Below are positions 1,401 to 44,640 of a DNA stretch of 64,000 nucleotides, in pieces; position 1 is the first letter of the stretch, and every line of letters begins with the position of its first letter. The notes under the pieces are model-generated. The model did no database searches and was not told the DNA's origin. It was given only the letters and a program-made list of their open reading frames with translations. Location: assembly GCA_905193755.1 (NCBI GenBank), contig CAJJPX010000003.1, forward strand, positions 14,925 to 78,924, read 5' to 3'. Source of the stretch: an uncultured Clostridium sp. (GTDB lineage: Bacteria > Bacillota_I > Bacilli_A > RF39 > UBA660). The position numbers were made by a program, and so were the translations under genes.

Positions 1401-1425
1401 AAAGAGAACTATTTTAGTTCTCTTT
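1401..1425 (-). terminator. Rho-independent terminator after the 539-aa sigma-like gene
   Basis: Perfect hairpin aaagagaact-attt-tagttctcttt. On the minus strand it is followed by TTTTCTT. It lies about 60 nt downstream of the stop at 1488. Confidence 0.7.
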
Positions 1426-1487: not shown

Positions 1488-3107
1488 TTATTTTTTAGGC
1501 ATTCTATATACTCTTTCTACGTATCCTAACATACCTGCATGTTTTAGTGACATGGCTACACAAAATCTTTGATATCTTAAGTCGTATATTTGTTTTTCTA
1601 TATCATTTTTTAATTCTTCACCTTTTGCTCTTCTTTTTTCAGAACTTAAGGCTTTTATTTGATCGTCTATGTCATAAAGCTTTAAGCATACTTTTGGTAA
1701 TCTTGATATTTCTACTTCTCTTCTTATTCTTCTTACTTCTGATTTTCTATTTTCTAATTCTTCTAAAGCTATTTCGTATCTACGTTTTGCTTCTTCTTCA
1801 TCAGCAAATTCTTCACTTAATTCTTTACCATTTCTAAGTCTTTCTAAAACTTCTCTACATGAAGTTACAACATGTAATTGTTTTTCTTCATTTGCTAAAG
1901 CATCTTCTAATTTAGTTGCTAGTACTCTATTTGGTTTTGAAAGATAAGTTAAATATCTTTTTGGTTTATTGTGTGGTGTTAATGTATCTAAGTCTGGTCT
2001 ATTTCTTCTCTTAACTGATTCTTCAGAATTTTCTTGTTTTATTTCTTTTTTTCTTGTTTTCTTTGCTGTTTCTATTTCGGCTAGTCTTTTTTCTATAACT
2101 GAAGCTCTTTTTCTTTGCTTTTCTATTTCTTCTGTAAATTTCTTATGTGCTTCTTCTTTAATCTTTGGATCAATATTTTTATAACTTAATAATGTTTTTA
2201 TTTTTTGTTCTAAAAGATCTATTGTTTTTTTGATTCTTGAAAGTTCTAATTTTCCAAAGAAAACTTCTTCAGTTTCAACATTTAATATTTTGAATTTATC
2301 ACCAGTTTTTTTACTAGCTTGTTTTGATTGCATTGCTTTTAAAGTTTGAAGAGCTCTTTCTTCAAAGTTTATTTCTTCTATAAGTTTTTTTCCACCATTT
2401 TTAAATATATTCTCGATATCTTCTCTTTTAATATATAATGAACTTGCAATTTCTCCTAGTGGGTCGACGAAATCATCTTTTATTTTAAAATATTCTAATA
2501 ATATAGCTTTTTCATCAGCATTTAAGCTTTCTGAATTTTCTATTCTTTGATAAAATTCATCAATTACCATACTATTTATAACAGCATCTTCTAAATACTT
2601 AGAACTTGTAATTCCATTTTCTTCTATATCACTATTTGATAATAAGCTATCTAATGATACTACTTCTTTTTTTCTTCTTGATTCTAATATTTTACTTTCA
2701 TCTTTAGATAGTAAACCTGTTACTTCTTTTTTGAAATCTTTATCTGTTATAGATGATACTAGTTCTATATTAGATTTTATTGCTTTTATAATAGATTTTC
2801 TTATTTCTTTTCTTGCTAATAAATTAAATTTAATTTTAGATTCACTAGTTGCATATATATTGATTGCTCTTACTAGGCCAATATATCCTTCTTGAATTAA
2901 ATCTTCGATTTGAGCACCTTTTAGATAAGAAAATATTTCTTCTGAAGTTTCTATTACTTCTATTGAGTATCTTCTTACTAATTCATCAAATGCTCTTTTA
3001 TCATTATTTTTAATTCTTCTAAATAAATCCTTTTCTTCAACCATTGAAGGTATTTCATAACCTTCTATGTCCTTTAAATAATATTTCATTTCTTCTACTT
3101 TTTTCAT
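1488..3107 (-). CDS. Divergent sigma-70-family protein (regions 2 and 4 recognisable) fused to a ~300-aa K/E/R-rich coiled-coil C-terminal extension
   Basis: N-terminus has EEKDLFRRIKNNDKRAFDELVRRY (region 1.2/2.1-like) and IEDLIQEGYIGLVRAINIY (region 2.2, cf. [13 protein letters not shown] in the neighbouring RpoD-like genes). The region 2.3/2.4 aromatic motif is degenerate. A region-4-like HTH LNADEKAILLEYFKIKDD...LGEIASSLYIKREDIENIFKNGGKKL sits around aa 195-240. The rest is charged heptad-like sequence. The start overlaps the upstream stop (TAATG). Confidence 0.6.
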   Translation of the reverse strand: MKKVEEMKYYLKDIEGYEIPSMVEEKDLFRRIKNNDKRAFDELVRRYSIEVIETSEEIFSYLKGAQIEDLIQEGYIGLVRAINIYATSESKIKFNLLARKEIRKSIIKAIKSNIELVSSITDKDFKKEVTGLLSKDESKILESRRKKEVVSLDSLLSNSDIEENGITSSKYLEDAVINSMVIDEFYQRIENSESLNADEKAILLEYFKIKDDFVDPLGEIASSLYIKREDIENIFKNGGKKLIEEINFEERALQTLKAMQSKQASKKTGDKFKILNVETEEVFFGKLELSRIKKTIDLLEQKIKTLLSYKNIDPKIKEEAHKKFTEEIEKQRKRASVIEKRLAEIETAKKTRKKEIKQENSEESVKRRNRPDLDTLTPHNKPKRYLTYLSKPNRVLATKLEDALANEEKQLHVVTSCREVLERLRNGKELSEEFADEEEAKRRYEIALEELENRKSEVRRIRREVEISRLPKVCLKLYDIDDQIKALSSEKRRAKGEELKNDIEKQIYDLRYQRFCVAMSLKHAGMLGYVERVYRMPKK

Positions 3108-3391
3108 TATTTTCCCCCATTTATTTTTAATAATAATTTTTTTATTTCTTTATCTTCGTCTGATTTTTCTTTTATTTCTTTATCTTCGTCTGATTTTTCT
3201 TTTATTTCTTTAAATTCATTAACTACTTCGTCATTATTTATTTTTTTCATTATTTTACTTAGTAATTCATGATAGTATTGTTTTGACTTATTAGTTAATC
3301 TTGATAATTCTGTAAAACTCATTGGTGGATACCCATCAAAACCAAAGAAGTACATTAGAAAGAATCTTTCTTTTTGAGTTAATTTTTTCAT
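3107..3391 (-). CDS. Small sigma region-4-like HTH protein with acidic tandem-repeat tail (possibly the C-terminal half of a decayed sigma paralog)
   Basis: LTQKERFFLMYFFGFDGYPPMSFTELSRLTNKSKQYYHELLSKIMKKI has the same layout as region 4 of the 539-aa protein. The C-terminus has KEIKEKSDED x2. The frame is open a further 23 codons upstream (NRNSEEELINKIYSKELAKRVLE) up to TAG at 3461..3463. Confidence 0.55.
   Translation of the reverse strand: MKKLTQKERFFLMYFFGFDGYPPMSFTELSRLTNKSKQYYHELLSKIMKKINNDEVVNEFKEIKEKSDEDKEIKEKSDEDKEIKKLLLKINGGK
3141..3212. repeat. Perfect 30-bp tandem repeat, 2.4 copies, in frame inside the 94-aa ORF
   Basis: Unit tttatttctttatcttcgtctgatttttct occupies 3141-3170 and 3171-3200. 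The first 12 nt repeat again at 3201-3212. It encodes KEIKEKSDED repeats. Confidence 0.95.
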
Positions 3392-3455: not shown

Positions 3456-3617
3456 CTATTCTATTAATAAGTTTTGATATCTTTTTATAAGTTCATTTCT
3501 TGCTTCAATATCACCACTTCTTATTTTTTCAAATAGTAAAGTTTCTTCTTCTCTAGATGGCATTTTATAATCTTTTATGTCTTCTAAAGAAGAACGAATA
3601 TTTTCTCTCTTTACCAT
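3456..3617 (-). pseudogene. 53-codon sigma-70 region 1.2/2.1-like N-terminal fragment (remnant or small subunit of a sigma paralog)
   Basis: Below ORF-track size. Manual translation gives MVKRENIRSSLEDIKDYKMPSREEETLLFEKIRSGDIEARNELIKRYQNLLIE, then TAG. It aligns with aa 10-53 of the 539-aa protein (LKDIEGYEIPSMVEEKDLFRRIKNNDKRAFDELVRRYSIEVIE). The next ORF continues in a different frame and regions 2.2-3 are missing. Confidence 0.5.
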
Positions 3618-3638
3618 ATAACCCCCATTAACGCATAT

Positions 3639-3667
3639 ATTATATCATAAATGATACAAGAAGTCAA
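3639..3667 (-). promoter_or_regulatory. Sigma-A-type promoter TTGACT-17-TATAAT with extended -10 and embedded TATCA-N4-TGATA palindrome
   Basis: Minus strand reads TTGACTtcttGTATCATTTATGATATAAT. The -35 is at 3662-3667 and the -10 at 3639-3644. It lies about 20 nt upstream of the 53-codon ORF. Confidence 0.6.
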
Positions 3668-3743: not shown

Positions 3744-5012
3744 TTATTTATATATAAAATGTGGTTTTTTCGTAGGTACAAGTGTTGCTTCTGATTCTTT
3801 TGAACTTAGATTATATGTTTTAATAATTCTATTACGTTTTAACTTTCTAAGTGCTTTCGATTCGATTTGTCTAATTCTTTCACGAGTAACATTAAATCTT
3901 TTACCTACTTCTTCTAATGTATATTCTTTTCCATCAACAAAGCCAAATCTTAAAGCTATAACTTGTGCTTCACGTTGTGTTAATACATCTCCTTCAAAAA
4001 CAGCTTTTCTAAATTCTCTATAGAATGTTACATCTGTATAATCTATGTTTCTAGTACTTGGGTCTTCAATCATGTCTCCTAATTCAGTATCTTCTGGTTC
4101 TGATCCTGTTCCTTTTAATGGCGTTGCAAGTGATACTGGGTTACTTATTAAAATTTGTAAACATTGTTCTACTTTATCAACTGGCATATCTAATATTTCT
4201 GATATTGTTTTCGCATTAGGTGTTTTACCGTATTGTTGTTCATATTTATCTATTGCTCTTTTTACTTTTTGAACTTGTTCATGTAGATGAACTGGTATTC
4301 TTATTGTTCTTGATGTATCTGCGATTGATCTTGTTATTGCTTGACGGATCCACCAAGTTGCATATGTACTAAACTTATATCCTTTAGTATAATCAAATTT
4401 TTCTGCTGCTTTCATTAAGCCAATATTTCCTTCTTGAATTAAGTCTAAAAATGAAATATTTCTTCCTTGATAACGTTTAGCATGTGCGACTACAAGACGA
4501 AGGTTATGTTCTACTAAAGTTTTCTTAGCTTCTTCATCACCTTCCATAATTCTTTTTCCTAGTTCCACTTCTTGTTCTGGTGTTAATAATTCACTACTTA
4601 ATTCTTTTAAATATGCTTTTACATCATCAGTCGGAGCCAGTGTATCATAACTATAATCTAATTCTTTTTCTGACTCTGATTTATCTTCATCTTCGTTGAT
4701 TACTTTAGATTCTTTTATTTCTTTTCCTGATATCATTGAGTATGAAGTTAGCATTGCTCCTACTGTTTCATCACCTACTATGTCTAGTATTCCATCAAAA
4801 TTTATAATTTCATCTAACATTTCTTTTAGTTGTTTTGAATTTTTAACTAATTCATTTGTATCATCTACACTTAGTAATATTTTCTTGTCCATTATAAATT
4901 TTACTAGATTTCTACAATTCTTTAATTGATTGTTTTTTCCAGTGACAAAGTTAGTATTTACGAAATCATTTATCATTTTTGTTTGTTCTTCAATTGATAA
5001 CATATATTTCAC
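3744..5012 (-). CDS. RpoD/SigA-like sigma-70 factor, paralog A (regions 1.2-4.2 complete, atypical N-terminal domain)
   Basis: [65 protein letters not shown] and [28 protein letters not shown] match primary sigma motifs. Its own promoter TTGCAA-17-TATAAT is at about 5033-5061. Confidence 0.9.
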
Positions 5013-5066: not shown

Positions 5067-6314
5067 CTAATTATATTTGTTATTTGGTTTTAGTTTTAGT
5101 GTAGTTTGAGAATCTGATGCTTTTGGATCAAAAGATTTAAGTTCTCTATTATGTCTTAATTTTCTTAATGCTTTTGCTTCTATTTGTCTTACTCTTTCAC
5201 GAGTTATTCCTAATTCTTTTCCTACATCTTCTAATGTATATAGTTTACCATCTCTAAATCCATTTCTTAATGATATAACGAAGCACTCACGATCTGTTAA
5301 TGCTCCACTTTCAAATACTGCTTTTCTGAATTCTTCATAGAATATACCTTCTGAATAGTCTATATCACTAGAATTTGGATCTTCAATCATTTCTCCCAAT
5401 TCTGTTTCATTTGAATCATCACCTGTAGCTTTTATTGGAGTAGATAGAGAAACTGGTGTACTTGCTAGTATTTGTAATAGTTGTTCTACTTTATATTTTG
5501 AAATTCCTGTTATATTTGAAATTGTCTCTGCATTTGGTGTAACTCCATTTTCTGGTTCATAAATATCTATTGCTTTTTTTACTTTTTGAACTTGATCATG
5601 AAGATGAACAGGTATTCTTATTGTTCTTGATTTATCAGCAATTGATCTTGTTATTGCTTGACGTATCCACCATGTAGCATAAGTACTGAATTTATATCCC
5701 TTAGTATAATCAAATTTTTTAACAGCTGTTAGAAGTCCTAGATTTCCTTCTTGTATTAAATCTAAAAATGATAGATTTTTTCCTTTATAATGTTTGGCTA
5801 TTGATACAACTAAACGTAAGTTAGATTCTGCTAGTATCTTTTCTGCTTCTTCATCGCCTTCGGCTATTCTTTTACCTAATTCTATTTCTTCTTCACCTGT
5901 TAATAATTCACTTGGTAATTCTCTTAAATAAACATGTGTATTATCTACGTATGCTAAAGTATTATAACTAAAGTCTAATTTTTTTTCTTCTTTTTTTTCT
6001 TCTGGTTCTTCTATCTTTATTTCTTTAATTTCTTTACCAGTAAACATAGAATGTGATGTTATCATTGCTTGTATAGTTGTATTACTAACTATATCCATAA
6101 TACCTTCAGTATCCATAATACCATCTAACATTTCTTTTAAAGATAGTGAATTTTTTACTAAATCACTAGTATCATCTATTGTTAAAGATATTCTATTTGC
6201 TTGAAGAAATTTTGCTAAGTTTCTACAATTTTTTAATTGATTAGATTTACCAACTAAAAAAGTTGAATCAGCGAATTCTTCTATCATTTTTATTTTTGTT
6301 TCTTTTGTAGCCAT
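5067..6314 (-). CDS. RpoD/SigA-like sigma-70 factor, paralog B
   Basis: Same motif set as paralog A: [55 protein letters not shown] and [28 protein letters not shown]. Its own promoter TTGAAA-17-TATAAT lies upstream. It is preceded by the ppa terminator. Confidence 0.9.
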
Positions 6315-31412: not shown

Positions 31413-31436
31413 AATATCCCCCTCTTATTTCCGCAT

Positions 31437-31465
31437 ATTATATCATAAGTGATACATATAGTCAA
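31437..31465 (-). promoter_or_regulatory. Promoter TTGACT-17-TATAAT with TATCA-N4-TGATA palindrome, near-copy of the one at 3639-3667
   Basis: Minus strand reads TTGACTatatGTATCACTTATGATATAATATGCGG. The -10 is at 31437-31442 and the -35 at 31460-31465. Confidence 0.6.
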
Positions 31466-43715: not shown

Positions 43716-43791
43716 TGGTGCTGAAAATAGGAATTGAACCCACAACCTACTGATTACGATTCAGTTGCTCTACCACTTGAGCTATTTCAGC
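43716..43791 (-). tRNA. tRNA-Thr (anticodon CGU)
   Basis: Manual cloverleaf: GCTGAAA TA GCTC AAGTGGTA GAGC A ACTGA ATCGTAA TCAGT AGGTT GTGGG TTCAATT CCTAT TTTCAGC A CCA. 76 nt with encoded CCA. Confidence 0.9.
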
Positions 43792-43792
43792 A

Positions 43793-43866
43793 TGGTTGCC
43801 TCAATAGGATTCGAACCTATGATGCTGGAGTCAGAGTCCAGAGCCTTACCACTTGGCCATGAGGCA
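43793..43866 (-). tRNA. tRNA-Gln (anticodon CUG)
   Basis: TGCCTCA TG GCC AAGTGGTAA GGC T CTGGA CTCTGAC TCCAG CATC ATAGG TTCGAAT CCTAT TGAGGCA A CCA. U1-A72 and a 3-bp D stem, as in Bacillus tRNA-Gln. Confidence 0.88.
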
Positions 43867-43875
43867 ATGAATGTA

Positions 43876-44244
43876 CTAGTTGTATGACAACATAATACTT
43901 TTTTTAGTATAAACTAAACCTAATAAATCTATATTTAAATATATATCATATAGTTCTTTATTCTTAACTATTTTAAAATCTATATCTTCTTTGCTTATAT
44001 CACTTGGTATATTATTTACTTCATAGATTATTTCTTCTACTGAATCTCTTAAAGTTATTTCATCTTTTATATCATCTAATTCATCTTTAGTTAGTGTTGT
44101 TCTAAATTCTAGTTTTATATCTCCTAGATCTTCAAAATAAGTTTCTATTCTTAAAGTAAATGTACTCATGATACCACTTTCATTTTCCCATATAACTGTT
44201 GTTTTGTCAGTTAAGCTTTCATTATCGATTTTTAACATAAGCAC
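43876..44244 (-). CDS. Hypothetical acidic protein (122 aa)
   Basis: ORF only, located between tmRNA and the tRNAs. Confidence 0.45.
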   Translation of the reverse strand: MLMLKIDNESLTDKTTVIWENESGIMSTFTLRIETYFEDLGDIKLEFRTTLTKDELDDIKDEITLRDSVEEIIYEVNNIPSDISKEDIDFKIVKNKELYDIYLNIDLLGLVYTKKSIMLSYN

Positions 44245-44288
44245 TCTCTTTCATTTAAAAAGACTTTATTAAGTCTAAATTACATATT

Positions 44289-44640
44289 TGGTGGAGATGA
44301 GGAGTAGCGAACTCCTGTCCAAGATTCATCCCAGTAGAACTTCTACAAGTTTAGTTGGTTTTTAATTTCAAATAATAATGTAGATTGCCAACTTCTCTTA
44401 TTATTCTAGGATTGCTAATTATTCTTTATAAACCACAAACAAATTTATAATATAGCTCACTTTATGACTCCCAACTTAAAACTCGTGAGCAAAAGTTAAA
44501 AGCGGAAGCTCCGTTTTACTTAATTAAGCAAAAGCTGGAGAGAAATTAAAATCGTTTCCGATTATTTTTGTTTTGCATTTAAAGTATGCCTACTACTTGC
44601 ATCCTACCCAGACATAATCCTGTCGAATCAATGCATCCCC
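44289..44640 (-). ncRNA. ssrA: tmRNA (SsrA)
   Basis: 5' end GGGGATGCATTGATTCGACAGG. 3' end GGACAGGAGTTCGCTACTCCTCATCTCCACCA. The acceptor stem pairs GGGGATG/CATCTCC with a G3-U wobble. The internal reading frame AAA ACA AAA ATA ATC GGA AAC GAT TTT AAT TTC TCT CCA GCT TTT GCT TAA ends in the hydrophobic AFA-stop (stop at 44524-44526). Confidence 0.92.

What the first reader, a model, noticed from the sequence alone, without database searches (positions are those of the whole stretch)
1488..3107. Sigma-like protein fused to a ~300-aa charged coiled-coil extension
The first ~240 aa have recognisable sigma regions 2.1/2.2 and a region-4 HTH. The -10 melting motif (region 2.3/2.4 aromatics) is replaced by KFNLLARKEIRKSIIKAIKS. 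The remaining ~300 aa are K/E/R-rich heptad-like sequence with no TM segment. C-terminal extensions are known for some ECF groups. A long soluble coiled coil on a group-3/4-like sigma is unusual, and it could tether or oligomerise RNA polymerase or act as a decoy.
Basis: partly seen in the sequence, partly recalled or inferred. Interest (0 to 1): 0.6.

Follow-up and report, generated by a model that had tools for sequence, protein, structure and literature searches.

The report
Divergent sigma factor with novel tail
An uncultured gut bacterium encodes a real but very divergent RNA-polymerase sigma-factor relative, fused to a fast-evolving, basic, all-helical tail found in only a few related species; whether it still starts transcription or only occupies the polymerase is untested.

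Summary
The ORF at 1488-3107 (minus strand, 539 aa) is real.

**N-terminal 250 aa.** This part is a genuine sigma-70-family core. A profile-profile match to sigma factors gives probability 99.9% (E 4e-33). The AlphaFold model has pLDDT above 90, and the structural matches are all sigma factors. Curated Pfam and NCBIfam cut-offs are nevertheless missed.

The region 2.2 core-binding motif is intact and strongly conserved (dN/dS about 0.2). The region 2.3 aromatic residues are absent, as in sigma-H-type factors. Domain 4 is more acidic than in any of 91 comparison sigmas, and its recognition helix varies between orthologs.

**C-terminal 290 aa.**
- It is basic and all-helical: two hairpins, a helical end, and a conserved disordered motif.
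- Heptad periodicity is only local, and there is no TM segment.
- It matches no domain library and shows only generic helical-hairpin resemblances to solved structures.
- It was found in only 2 of 50 species of the genus.
- dN/dS is about 1, yet the frame is clearly kept open by selection.

**Context.** The gene sits in a variable sigma-paralog slot upstream of lepA. It is driven by a genus-wide promoter-plus-palindrome shared with other fast-evolving orphan genes.

**Verdict.** This is a new variant of sigma factors with C-terminal extensions. An initiating sigma and a non-initiating polymerase binder are about equally likely. Interest is moderate.

**Earlier notes.** Earlier notes of this scan describe other tailed sigma factors on other DNA.

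The parts
1488..3107 (-). ORF539: sigma-family core fused to a novel helical C-terminal module
   Evidence: Orthologs: 51% identity in G016, 38% in P0006.
2670..3107 (-). Residues 1-146: regions 1.2-2.4 (sigma domain 2) plus two short helices left from region 3
   Evidence: pLDDT above 90. VIA Z 10.5-12.6 to sigma2 structures. Region 2.2 motif kept. dN/dS 0.14-0.25 over residues 1-120.
2601..2669 (-). Residues 147-169: acidic, disordered, region-3.2-like linker that keeps the SLD motif
   Evidence: pLDDT below 50. Aligns with the SLD of the sigma consensus. Net charge -4.
2358..2600 (-). Residues 170-250: sigma domain 4 fold, acidic, with a variable recognition helix
   Evidence: hhalign and AF2. 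Net -10, pI 4.4. More acidic than all 91 comparison sigmas. dN/dS about 0.58.
2004..2357 (-). Residues 251-368: basic antiparallel helical hairpin continuing the last sigma4 helix, with invariant N-I-D at the tip
   Evidence: Helices 228-308 and 314-368. Net +13, pI 9.9. Only generic hairpin matches. Invariant columns.
1932..2003 (-). Residues 369-392: conserved motif in a predicted disordered loop (T-x-T, N-K-P, Y-L, P invariant)
   Evidence: pLDDT below 50. Invariant columns across orthologs at 38% identity.
1491..1931 (-). Residues 393-539: second helical hairpin, three more helices, and a conserved G-Y...M-P end
   Evidence: pLDDT 82-97. dN/dS about 1.0-1.2. No domain match.
3107..3391 (-). 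ORF94: free-standing sigma-domain-4-like protein with a K/E repeat tail. Its stop overlaps the ORF539 start by one base (TAATG).
   Evidence: hhalign to sigma4 columns: probability 87.6%, E 3.5e-6. Sequence. No ORF94 gene lies between the promoter and the ortholog in G016.
3456..3617 (-). 53-codon ORF: remnant of a duplicate of the ORF539 N-terminus
   Evidence: 42% identity to ORF539 residues 1-53, E 3e-11, colinear from the start codon.
3639..3667 (-). Promoter TTGACT-17-TATAAT with TG, overlapped by the palindrome TGTATCA-N4-TGATATA (3641-3658)
   Evidence: Best promoter match in the region, 11 of 12. The same element lies directly before the G016 ortholog. It also precedes 6-7 other genes in G000.
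3114..3118 (-). GGGGG ribosome-binding site of ORF539, lying inside the end of ORF94. A second copy at 3622-3626 serves the 53-codon ORF.
   Evidence: Sequence read. The same leader type occurs in the promoter class.
1401..1425 (-). Terminator hairpin between ORF539 and lepA
   Evidence: 11-pair stem, against 0.2 expected in shuffles. The T-run on the minus strand was read.

Best explanation
ORF539 is a lineage-restricted sigma-70-family protein of the WW-less, sigma-H-like type, and I think it still works on RNA polymerase.

**Shown.**
- It has a full sigma2 / short sigma3 / linker / sigma4 core.
- The region 2.2 motif that docks sigma on the beta-prime clamp helices is intact and under strong purifying selection.
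- The 2.3-2.4 helix is conserved and unusually basic.
- Domain 4 is acidic and variable.
- A basic, all-helical module of about 290 aa continues straight out of the last sigma4 helix.
- The gene is driven by a consensus promoter overlapped by a palindrome, which is a probable repressor operator.

**Inferred.**
- When the operator is relieved, the protein is made and docks on core polymerase through sigma2.
- It reads a -10-like element with the basic 2.3-2.4 helix.
- It does not read a -35 hexamer. The basic helical hairpin that projects from sigma4 instead contacts upstream DNA or a partner.
- That would make it a second-tier switch within a genus-wide regulon of fast-evolving genes.
For: - **Sigma homology over the whole core:** hhalign 99.9%, E 4e-33. 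631 sigma hits with E at or below 1e-3, some of them spanning residues 1-250. Sigma folds found by Foldseek and VIA.
- **Region 2.2:** nearly identical to consensus. The SLD linker motif is kept.
- **Selection on residues 1-120:** dN/dS 0.14-0.25, against 0.02 for lepA at dS 0.47.
- **The 2.3-2.4 stretch:** net +5 to +7, at or above the top of 91 sigmas (mean +3.9, maximum +6), and nearly invariant among orthologs.
- **Closest named models:** sigma-H-type factors, which also lack the WW pair.
- **The tail is under selection:** it stays open in three lineages, whereas 0 of 20000 neutral simulants at the observed 42% divergence stay open. It has invariant motifs.
- **Its own promoter, RBS and terminator** are conserved in G016.
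Against: - The sigma4 core has net charge -2 to -5, against a mean of +3.5 (minimum -2) in 91 sigmas. The recognition helix has net -2 to +2, against +3.8, and differs in each ortholog.
- The loop before region 2.3, which sets -10 specificity in ECF-type sigmas, also varies.
- Sigma4 evolves at dN/dS about 0.58 and the tail at about 1.0-1.3.
- No target promoter was identified.
- The palindrome-promoter class is not its own target: it occurs in 37 of 50 genus genomes, while the protein occurs in 2 of 50.
- There are no expression data. Both tools that could have given them were unavailable.
Confidence: 0.4

Rival explanations
1. Pseudo-sigma. The protein docks on core polymerase through sigma2 but cannot recognise promoters. 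It acts as a competitor of the true sigmas, or as an adapter that brings the polymerase to whatever the basic helical tail binds (nucleic acid, a partner, or itself).
For: - The conservation pattern fits a protein that needs only the core-docking surface: sigma2 dN/dS about 0.2, sigma4 0.58, tail about 1.
- Sigma4 is more acidic than any of 91 sigmas, and its recognition helix varies.
- The aromatic residues of region 2.3 are lost and region 2.1 has turned acidic.
Against: - The 2.3-2.4 helix is basic and almost invariant. A pure competitor would not obviously need this.
- Working sigma-H-type factors also lack the WW pair.
- Apart from PhyR, I know of no sigma-70-family domain with a non-sigma role (from memory, not searched systematically).
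Confidence: 0.3
2. Sigma mimic in a partner switch, as in PhyR. The degenerate sigma-like core binds an anti-sigma factor and so frees a true sigma, for example one of the neighbouring RpoD-like paralogs. The tail would be the regulatory part.
For: - The layout is a degenerate sigma-like domain plus an unrelated C-terminal domain.
- The gene lies beside other sigma paralogs.
- PhyR sets the precedent (PMC4551977, PMC4598750; listed).
Against: - There is no receiver domain or any other signalling domain.
- I did not look for, and did not notice, an anti-sigma gene at the locus.
- The near-invariance of sigma2 between species fits an ultra-conserved partner such as the polymerase better than a co-evolving anti-sigma.
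Confidence: 0.08
3. Young fusion with little specific function. A duplicated sigma gene read into, or captured, AT-rich sequence. The tail would be tolerated ballast, and the gene would be on its way to loss.
For: - Tail dN/dS is about 1.0-1.3.
- The tail was found in 2 of 50 genus genomes and had no credible match (three weak hits, E 1e-4 to 9e-4) in 400 genomes of the family.
- A K/E/R-rich make-up is what 24% GC DNA tends to encode.
- A decayed duplicate lies just upstream.
- Sigma extensions born by duplication and chance insertion are documented (PMC7671368).
Against: - The frame is open and of the same length in three lineages down to 38% identity. No neutral simulant stays open.
- Invariant motifs lie at the hairpin tip, in the loop and at the C-terminal end.
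- The AF2 model is confident.
- A dedicated promoter is conserved.
Confidence: 0.12

Closest known systems
Sigma-H / ComX-type sigma factors of Firmicutes (NCBIfam TIGR02859, PRK08295; PDB 3mzy)
   Same: - They are the best named sequence models for residues 23-113.
- They have no WW pair in region 2.3 and little or no region 3.
- Their 2.3-2.4 helix is similar.
- A support-starred 7-row clade (95/90) contains the ORF539 family, this genome's SigH and other WW-less sigmas.
   Different: - Scores are far below the family cut-offs (31.6 against 294.8).
- The genome has its own 204-aa SigH in a separate contig.
- ORF539 has an acidic domain 4 and a 290-aa tail.
- The tree placement rests on long branches.
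ECF sigma factors with C-terminal extensions (for example ECF41/42, and the Planctomycetes extensions born by duplication and chance insertion; PMC7671368)
   Same: - A sigma core is followed by an extra C-terminal part that can regulate the sigma.
- Extensions can be lineage-specific, without homologs, and evolve differently from the core.
   Different: - ORF539 is not an ECF sigma: it keeps region 1.2, a rest of region 3 and a 3.2 linker.
- Its tail matches no Pfam domain.
- Its domain 4 is degenerate.
PhyR, the sigma-mimic anti-anti-sigma factor of Alphaproteobacteria (PMC4551977; review PMC4598750)
   Same: A degenerate sigma-like domain that (from general knowledge) no longer reads DNA, fused to a second domain.
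   Different: - PhyR carries a receiver domain and works with NepR and EcfG.
- No receiver domain is present here, no NepR- or anti-sigma-like partner was looked for, and the phylum is different.
Tailed sigma factors noted earlier in this scan: a phage SigF-like sigma with a coiled coil of about 280 aa (e1-5849847), and gut-Bacilli sigmas with region-4 repeat tails ending in an acidic region 4 (e1-1098760)
   Same: - A sigma core with a long C-terminal tail.
- One of those families has a coiled coil of similar length. Another has an acidic region-4 fold.
- The same genome also holds a 499-aa sigma whose tail ends in an extra sigma4-like domain.
   Different: - There is no sequence similarity: tblastn of ORF539 against 50,697 phage records finds nothing.
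- The ORF539 tail has no sigma4-like repeats (hhalign probability 0.3%).
- These notes are unchecked leads.

Membership tests
Sigma-70 family (Pfam Sigma70_r2/r4; NCBIfam TIGR02937) | Score above the curated family cut-offs | tested here: not met
   Sigma70_r2 scores 18.4 against 24, and there is no r4 hit. TIGR02937 scores 37.5 against 42.9.
Sigma-70 family (Pfam Sigma70_r2/r4; NCBIfam TIGR02937) | Homology and fold of sigma domains 2 and 4 in the canonical order | tested here: met
   hhalign 99.9%, E 4e-33, 233 columns. All listed Foldseek hits are sigmas. VIA matches sigma2 at Z 10.5-12.6, rmsd 1.4-2.2 A.
Sigma-70 family (Pfam Sigma70_r2/r4; NCBIfam TIGR02937) | Region 2.2 core-binding motif | tested here: met
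   The D-L-I-Q-E-G-x-I-G-L motif is kept with one change (N to Y). It is invariant in all orthologs.
Sigma-70 family (Pfam Sigma70_r2/r4; NCBIfam TIGR02937) | Basic recognition helix in region 4.2 for the -35 element | tested here: not met
   Net charge -2 to +2, against a mean of +3.8. The sigma4 core is -2 to -5, against +3.5 (minimum -2) in 91 sigmas. The helix differs in each ortholog.
Sigma-70 family (Pfam Sigma70_r2/r4; NCBIfam TIGR02937) | Binds core polymerase and directs promoter-specific initiation | not testable with these tools
   This needs biochemistry.
Groups 1-3 sigma factors | Aromatic residues of region 2.3 (Y, W, W) that open the -10 element | tested here: not met
   They are replaced by L, K and E. 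The family has 1-3 aromatics, against a mean of 4.0.
Sigma-H (TIGR02859 / PRK08295) | Equivalog score, and being the genome's sigH | tested here: not met
   Scores are 31.6 against 294.8 and 33.1 against 212. A separate 204-aa SigH lies at G000 C6:47316-47930.
ECF sigma factors with C-terminal extension | Only sigma2 and sigma4, plus a conserved extension domain of a described type | tested here: not met
   Region 1.2, a rest of region 3 and the 3.2 linker are present. The tail has no Pfam, PHROG or PDB sequence match.
PhyR-like sigma mimics | C-terminal receiver domain | tested here: not met
   No receiver domain was found in Pfam or NCBIfam. The tail is all-helical.
MzaA (sigma of the MZA anti-phage system) | Full-length match to the MzaA model | tested here: not met
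   Only 20.5 bits, over region 2.2 (residues 63-117).
Canonical long coiled coil | Continuous heptad periodicity over the tail | tested here: inconclusive
   Periodicity at 3.5 residues exceeds shuffles only in 394-425 and 437-469, and is borderline in 314-368. The test was home-made. AF2 shows antiparallel hairpins.

The most novel reading that the evidence does not exclude
ORF539 is a pseudo-sigma. It would be a sigma-derived protein that keeps only the polymerase-docking domain and uses a fast-evolving basic helical module to sequester, tether or retarget core RNA polymerase. It would be switched on by a genus-wide repressor-controlled programme. That would be a class of sigma competitor not described so far, evolving at arms-race speed.
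Probability: 0.3. Interest if true: 0.7.

Novelty: new variant of a known kind. Interest (0 to 1): 0.4.

Why it matters
Sigma factors are usually read as simple promoter-specificity subunits. Here the polymerase-docking half is frozen, while the DNA-reading head and a new 290-aa module change about as fast as silent sites.

If it still initiates, it shows how a sigma can trade -35 recognition for a new appended contact. If it does not, it is a natural sigma-derived polymerase binder, a kind known so far mainly from PhyR.

The locus also exposes active sigma-gene turnover in reduced gut Firmicutes:
- tandem RpoD-like paralogs;
- a variable slot upstream of lepA;
- a conserved operator driving hyper-variable orphan genes.

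The organism is uncultured and the family is tiny, so the practical reach is limited.

Tried and rejected
- **Homolog searches.** The 5.8-billion and 1.84-billion protein sets gave only three lineages of full-length relatives.
  - P0005, the tail joined to an unrelated N-terminus with a TM helix, comes from a 1.4-kb contig.
- **Scans for the tail.** I scanned 400 genomes of the family, 50 of the genus, metagenome contigs and genome contigs. Only G000 and the G016 lineage hold it.
- **No significant match for the tail** in Pfam, NCBIfam, PHROGs, PADLOC, PDB sequences (single sequence and profile) or the phage tblastn; the ESM Atlas gave no usable feature hit and only structure rows at TM ≤ 0.45.
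- **Fold searches** matched the tail only to generic hairpins (ESCRT-III, F-BAR, SMC, HlyD, prefoldin, HP0958/CT398) at Z 9-10.8. That is within the noise quoted for helical models, so I drew no functional reading from them.
- **Tail as degenerate sigma4 repeats:** rejected (hhalign 0.3%).
- **Internal repeats in the tail:** none found.
- **The 592-aa orphan that shares the promoter** is not related to ORF539.
- **The shared promoter motif as ORF539's own recognition site:** rejected. The motif is in 37 of 50 genus genomes and the protein in 2 of 50.
- **Origin from the neighbouring RpoD-like paralogs:** not supported by the tree. The family sits on a long branch outside that clade.

Full report
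**1. The object**

The minus-strand ORF 1488-3107 encodes 539 aa. The window comes from a 1.34-Mb, 74%-complete MAG with about 27% GC. The nearest genome that carries the gene is a human-gut MAG labelled uncultured Clostridium sp.. The genome has SigA behind dnaG. By context and similarity it also has SigE (behind a SpoIIGA-like gene), SigG/F-like, SigK-like and SigH genes. It is therefore a reduced, sporulation-type Firmicute.

**2. The N-terminal 250 aa are a sigma-70-family core**

Curated cut-offs are missed:
- Pfam Sigma70_r2 scores 18.4 against 24, with no r4 hit.
- TIGR02937 scores 37.5 against 42.9.

Deeper tests are clear:
- An exhaustive HMMER search found 631 proteins at E 1e-3 or better. 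Apart from two full-length relatives and one tail fragment, the 150 best listed are mostly 100-500 aa, many in the 230-300-aa range typical of sigma factors, matching residues 5-117 or 1-250.
- hhalign of residues 1-250 against a sigma-only alignment gives 99.9%, E 4e-33, over 233 columns from region 1.2 to 4.2.
- With a 99-sequence alignment, AF2 gives mean pLDDT 86.9, with sigma2 (1-146) and sigma4 (170-250) above 90.
- The listed (top ~50) Foldseek hits are all sigma factors.
- VIA-align superposes sigma2 on solved domain-2 structures at rmsd 1.4-2.2 A, Z 10.5-12.6.

**3. What is kept and what is changed in the core**

Kept:
- the region 2.2 motif, with one change and invariant in all orthologs;
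- the SLD motif of the 3.2 linker;
- the hydrophobic pattern of region 4.1.

Changed:
- The region 2.3 aromatics Y, W and W become L, K and E.
- Region 2.1 has turned acidic.
- Region 3 is reduced to two short helices.
- The sigma4 core has net charge -2 to -5, against +3.5 (sd 2.5, minimum -2) in 91 other sigmas.
- The recognition helix is different in each ortholog.

Two points limit the 'dead sigma' reading. First, sigma-H-type factors, which are the closest named models, also lack the WW pair, and so does this genome's own SigH. Second, the 2.3-2.4 helix is nearly invariant among orthologs and more basic (+5 to +7) than in typical sigmas (mean +3.9).

**4. The tail (residues 251-539)**

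- It has pI 9-9.9 in all orthologs.
- It is all-alpha. The last sigma4 helix runs on to residue 308 and pairs with helix 314-368. A disordered loop (369-384) follows. Then come helices 394-425, 437-469, 472-493, 497-523 and 527-534.
- Invariant residues cluster in three places: the hairpin tip (N-I-D), the loop (T-x-T, N-K-P, Y-L, P) and the C-terminal end.
- Heptad periodicity is only local, and there is no TM segment.
- No library, PDB sequence or profile, phage record or Atlas cluster gives a significant match.
- Fold matches are generic helical hairpins.

**5. Evolution**

LepA of G000 and G016 is 98% identical (dS 0.47, dN/dS 0.02). ORF539 is 50% identical between the same two genomes. 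Its dN/dS by region is:

| Region | dN/dS |
|---|---|
| Residues 1-120 | 0.14-0.25 |
| Sigma4 | about 0.58 |
| Residues 300-539 | 1.0-1.3 |

The tail is nevertheless under selection to be translated. At the observed 42% nucleotide divergence, 0 of 20000 neutral simulants stay open (mean 19.6 stops). The three lineages differ by only a few indels.

The tail was found in 2 of 50 species of the genus and had no credible match (three weak hits, E 1e-4 to 9e-4) in 400 genomes of the family.

**6. Locus and regulation**

On the minus strand the order is:
1. two RpoD-like paralogs (415 and 422 aa);
2. a terminator;
3. a TTGACT-17-TATAAT promoter with TG;
4. a 53-codon remnant of an ORF539-like N-terminus;
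5. ORF94, a free sigma4-like protein;
6. ORF539, overlapping ORF94 by one base;
7. a terminator;
8. lepA.

This order rests. In G016 the same promoter and GGGGG leader sit directly before the ortholog. The two small ORFs in G000 therefore look like a decayed tandem duplicate.

The promoter is overlapped by a palindrome, TGTATCA-N4-TGATATA.
- The same promoter, palindrome and GGGGG leader precede 6-7 otherwise unrelated genes in G000, against 0 hits for the reversed pattern. Most of them appear to stand alone, with the next ORF a housekeeping gene. They include a DnaJ-domain protein, membrane coiled-coil proteins and the 592-aa orphan.
- Four of these genes keep the element in G016, although their products are only 30-52% identical.
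- The element occurs in 37 of 50 genus genomes. It is therefore a genus-wide control element, probably an operator, and not ORF539's own target.

The slot upstream of lepA varies across the 30 genus genomes examined:

| Occupant of the slot | Genomes |
|---|---|
| RpoD-like genes | 10 |
| Short sigmas of 288-294 aa | 3 |
| WW-less 262-aa sigma with a basic tail | 1 |
| ORF539 family | 2 |
| Non-sigma genes | 14 |

A tree puts the ORF539 family on a long branch, in a supported set with SigH and other WW-less sigmas and outside the RpoD-like clade. The RpoD-like neighbour in G016 is sister to genes that abut lepA directly in other species. The ORF539 cassette is therefore a gain-or-loss polymorphism at this site.

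**7. Reading**

What is shown is a sigma-family core with a frozen polymerase-docking domain, a degenerate -35 head, a new basic helical module and repressor-type control. What it does is inferred. My estimates are:
- 0.4 for a working sigma that no longer uses a -35 hexamer;
- 0.3 for a non-initiating polymerase binder;
- 0.08 for a PhyR-like mimic;
- 0.12 for a weakly selected young fusion.

Precedents for sigma extensions arising by duplication and chance insertion exist (PMC7671368).

Noticed in passing
window 3639-3667 and 31435-31465; G000 C1:237718-237737, C3:10225-10244, C4:23895-23914, C5:7648-7667, C6:28555: A shared control cassette: a -35 box, the palindrome TGTATCA-N4-TGATATA over an extended -10, then a GGGGG RBS.
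- It drives 6-7 unrelated, fast-evolving genes, most of which appear to stand alone.
- It is conserved in G016 and present in 37 of 50 genomes of the genus.
- Some genomes carry the perfect palindrome, which points to a dimeric repressor.
- The repressor and its signal are unknown.
   Followed up: partly
window 3744-5012 and 5067-6314: The two RpoD-like paralogs are not the housekeeping sigma. SigA lies behind dnaG on G000 C9:25313-26404. The paralogs evolve fast: about 53% identity to the G016 gene and dN/dS about 0.45, while LepA is 98% identical.
   Followed up: partly
upstream of lepA in 30 genomes of the genus (loci L043-L072): The gene just upstream of lepA is a turnover hot spot. It can be an RpoD-like gene, a short sigma, a WW-less sigma, an ORF539-type gene or a non-sigma gene, even among genomes whose LepA is 96-99% identical.
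   Followed up: partly
G000 C21:5422-6921: A 499-aa SigE/K-like sigma whose 290-aa tail ends in an extra sigma4-like domain (hhalign 93%, E 2.5e-7), with weaker degenerate copies before it. It resembles the 'tailed sigma' family noted earlier in this scan.
   Followed up: partly
window 2928-3107 (first 60 codons of ORF539): Synonymous divergence from G016 is only 0.24 here, against about 0.5-0.9 further on and 0.47 in lepA. This could reflect selection on the 5' mRNA or a recent exchange of this segment.
   Followed up: no
protein P0005 (ENA contig of 1422 bases): The ORF539-type tail, nearly identical to G016 from residue 257 on, is joined to an unrelated N-terminus with a TM helix. It is probably a chimeric assembly, but a natural domain swap is not excluded.
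   Followed up: no
G000 C1:2256 (plus strand): A 95-aa protein that looks like an XRE-type helix-turn-helix regulator (by eye, no domain search) sits behind a degenerate copy of the palindrome-promoter (2 mismatches). It is a candidate for the autoregulated repressor of the cassette.
   Followed up: no
window 3178-3237 (in ORF94): A perfect in-frame tandem repeat encodes a duplicated 10-residue K/E/D-rich block in the tail of ORF94.
   Followed up: no
window 43719-44640: tmRNA (135.5 bits) and two tRNA genes lie on the minus strand.
   Followed up: no
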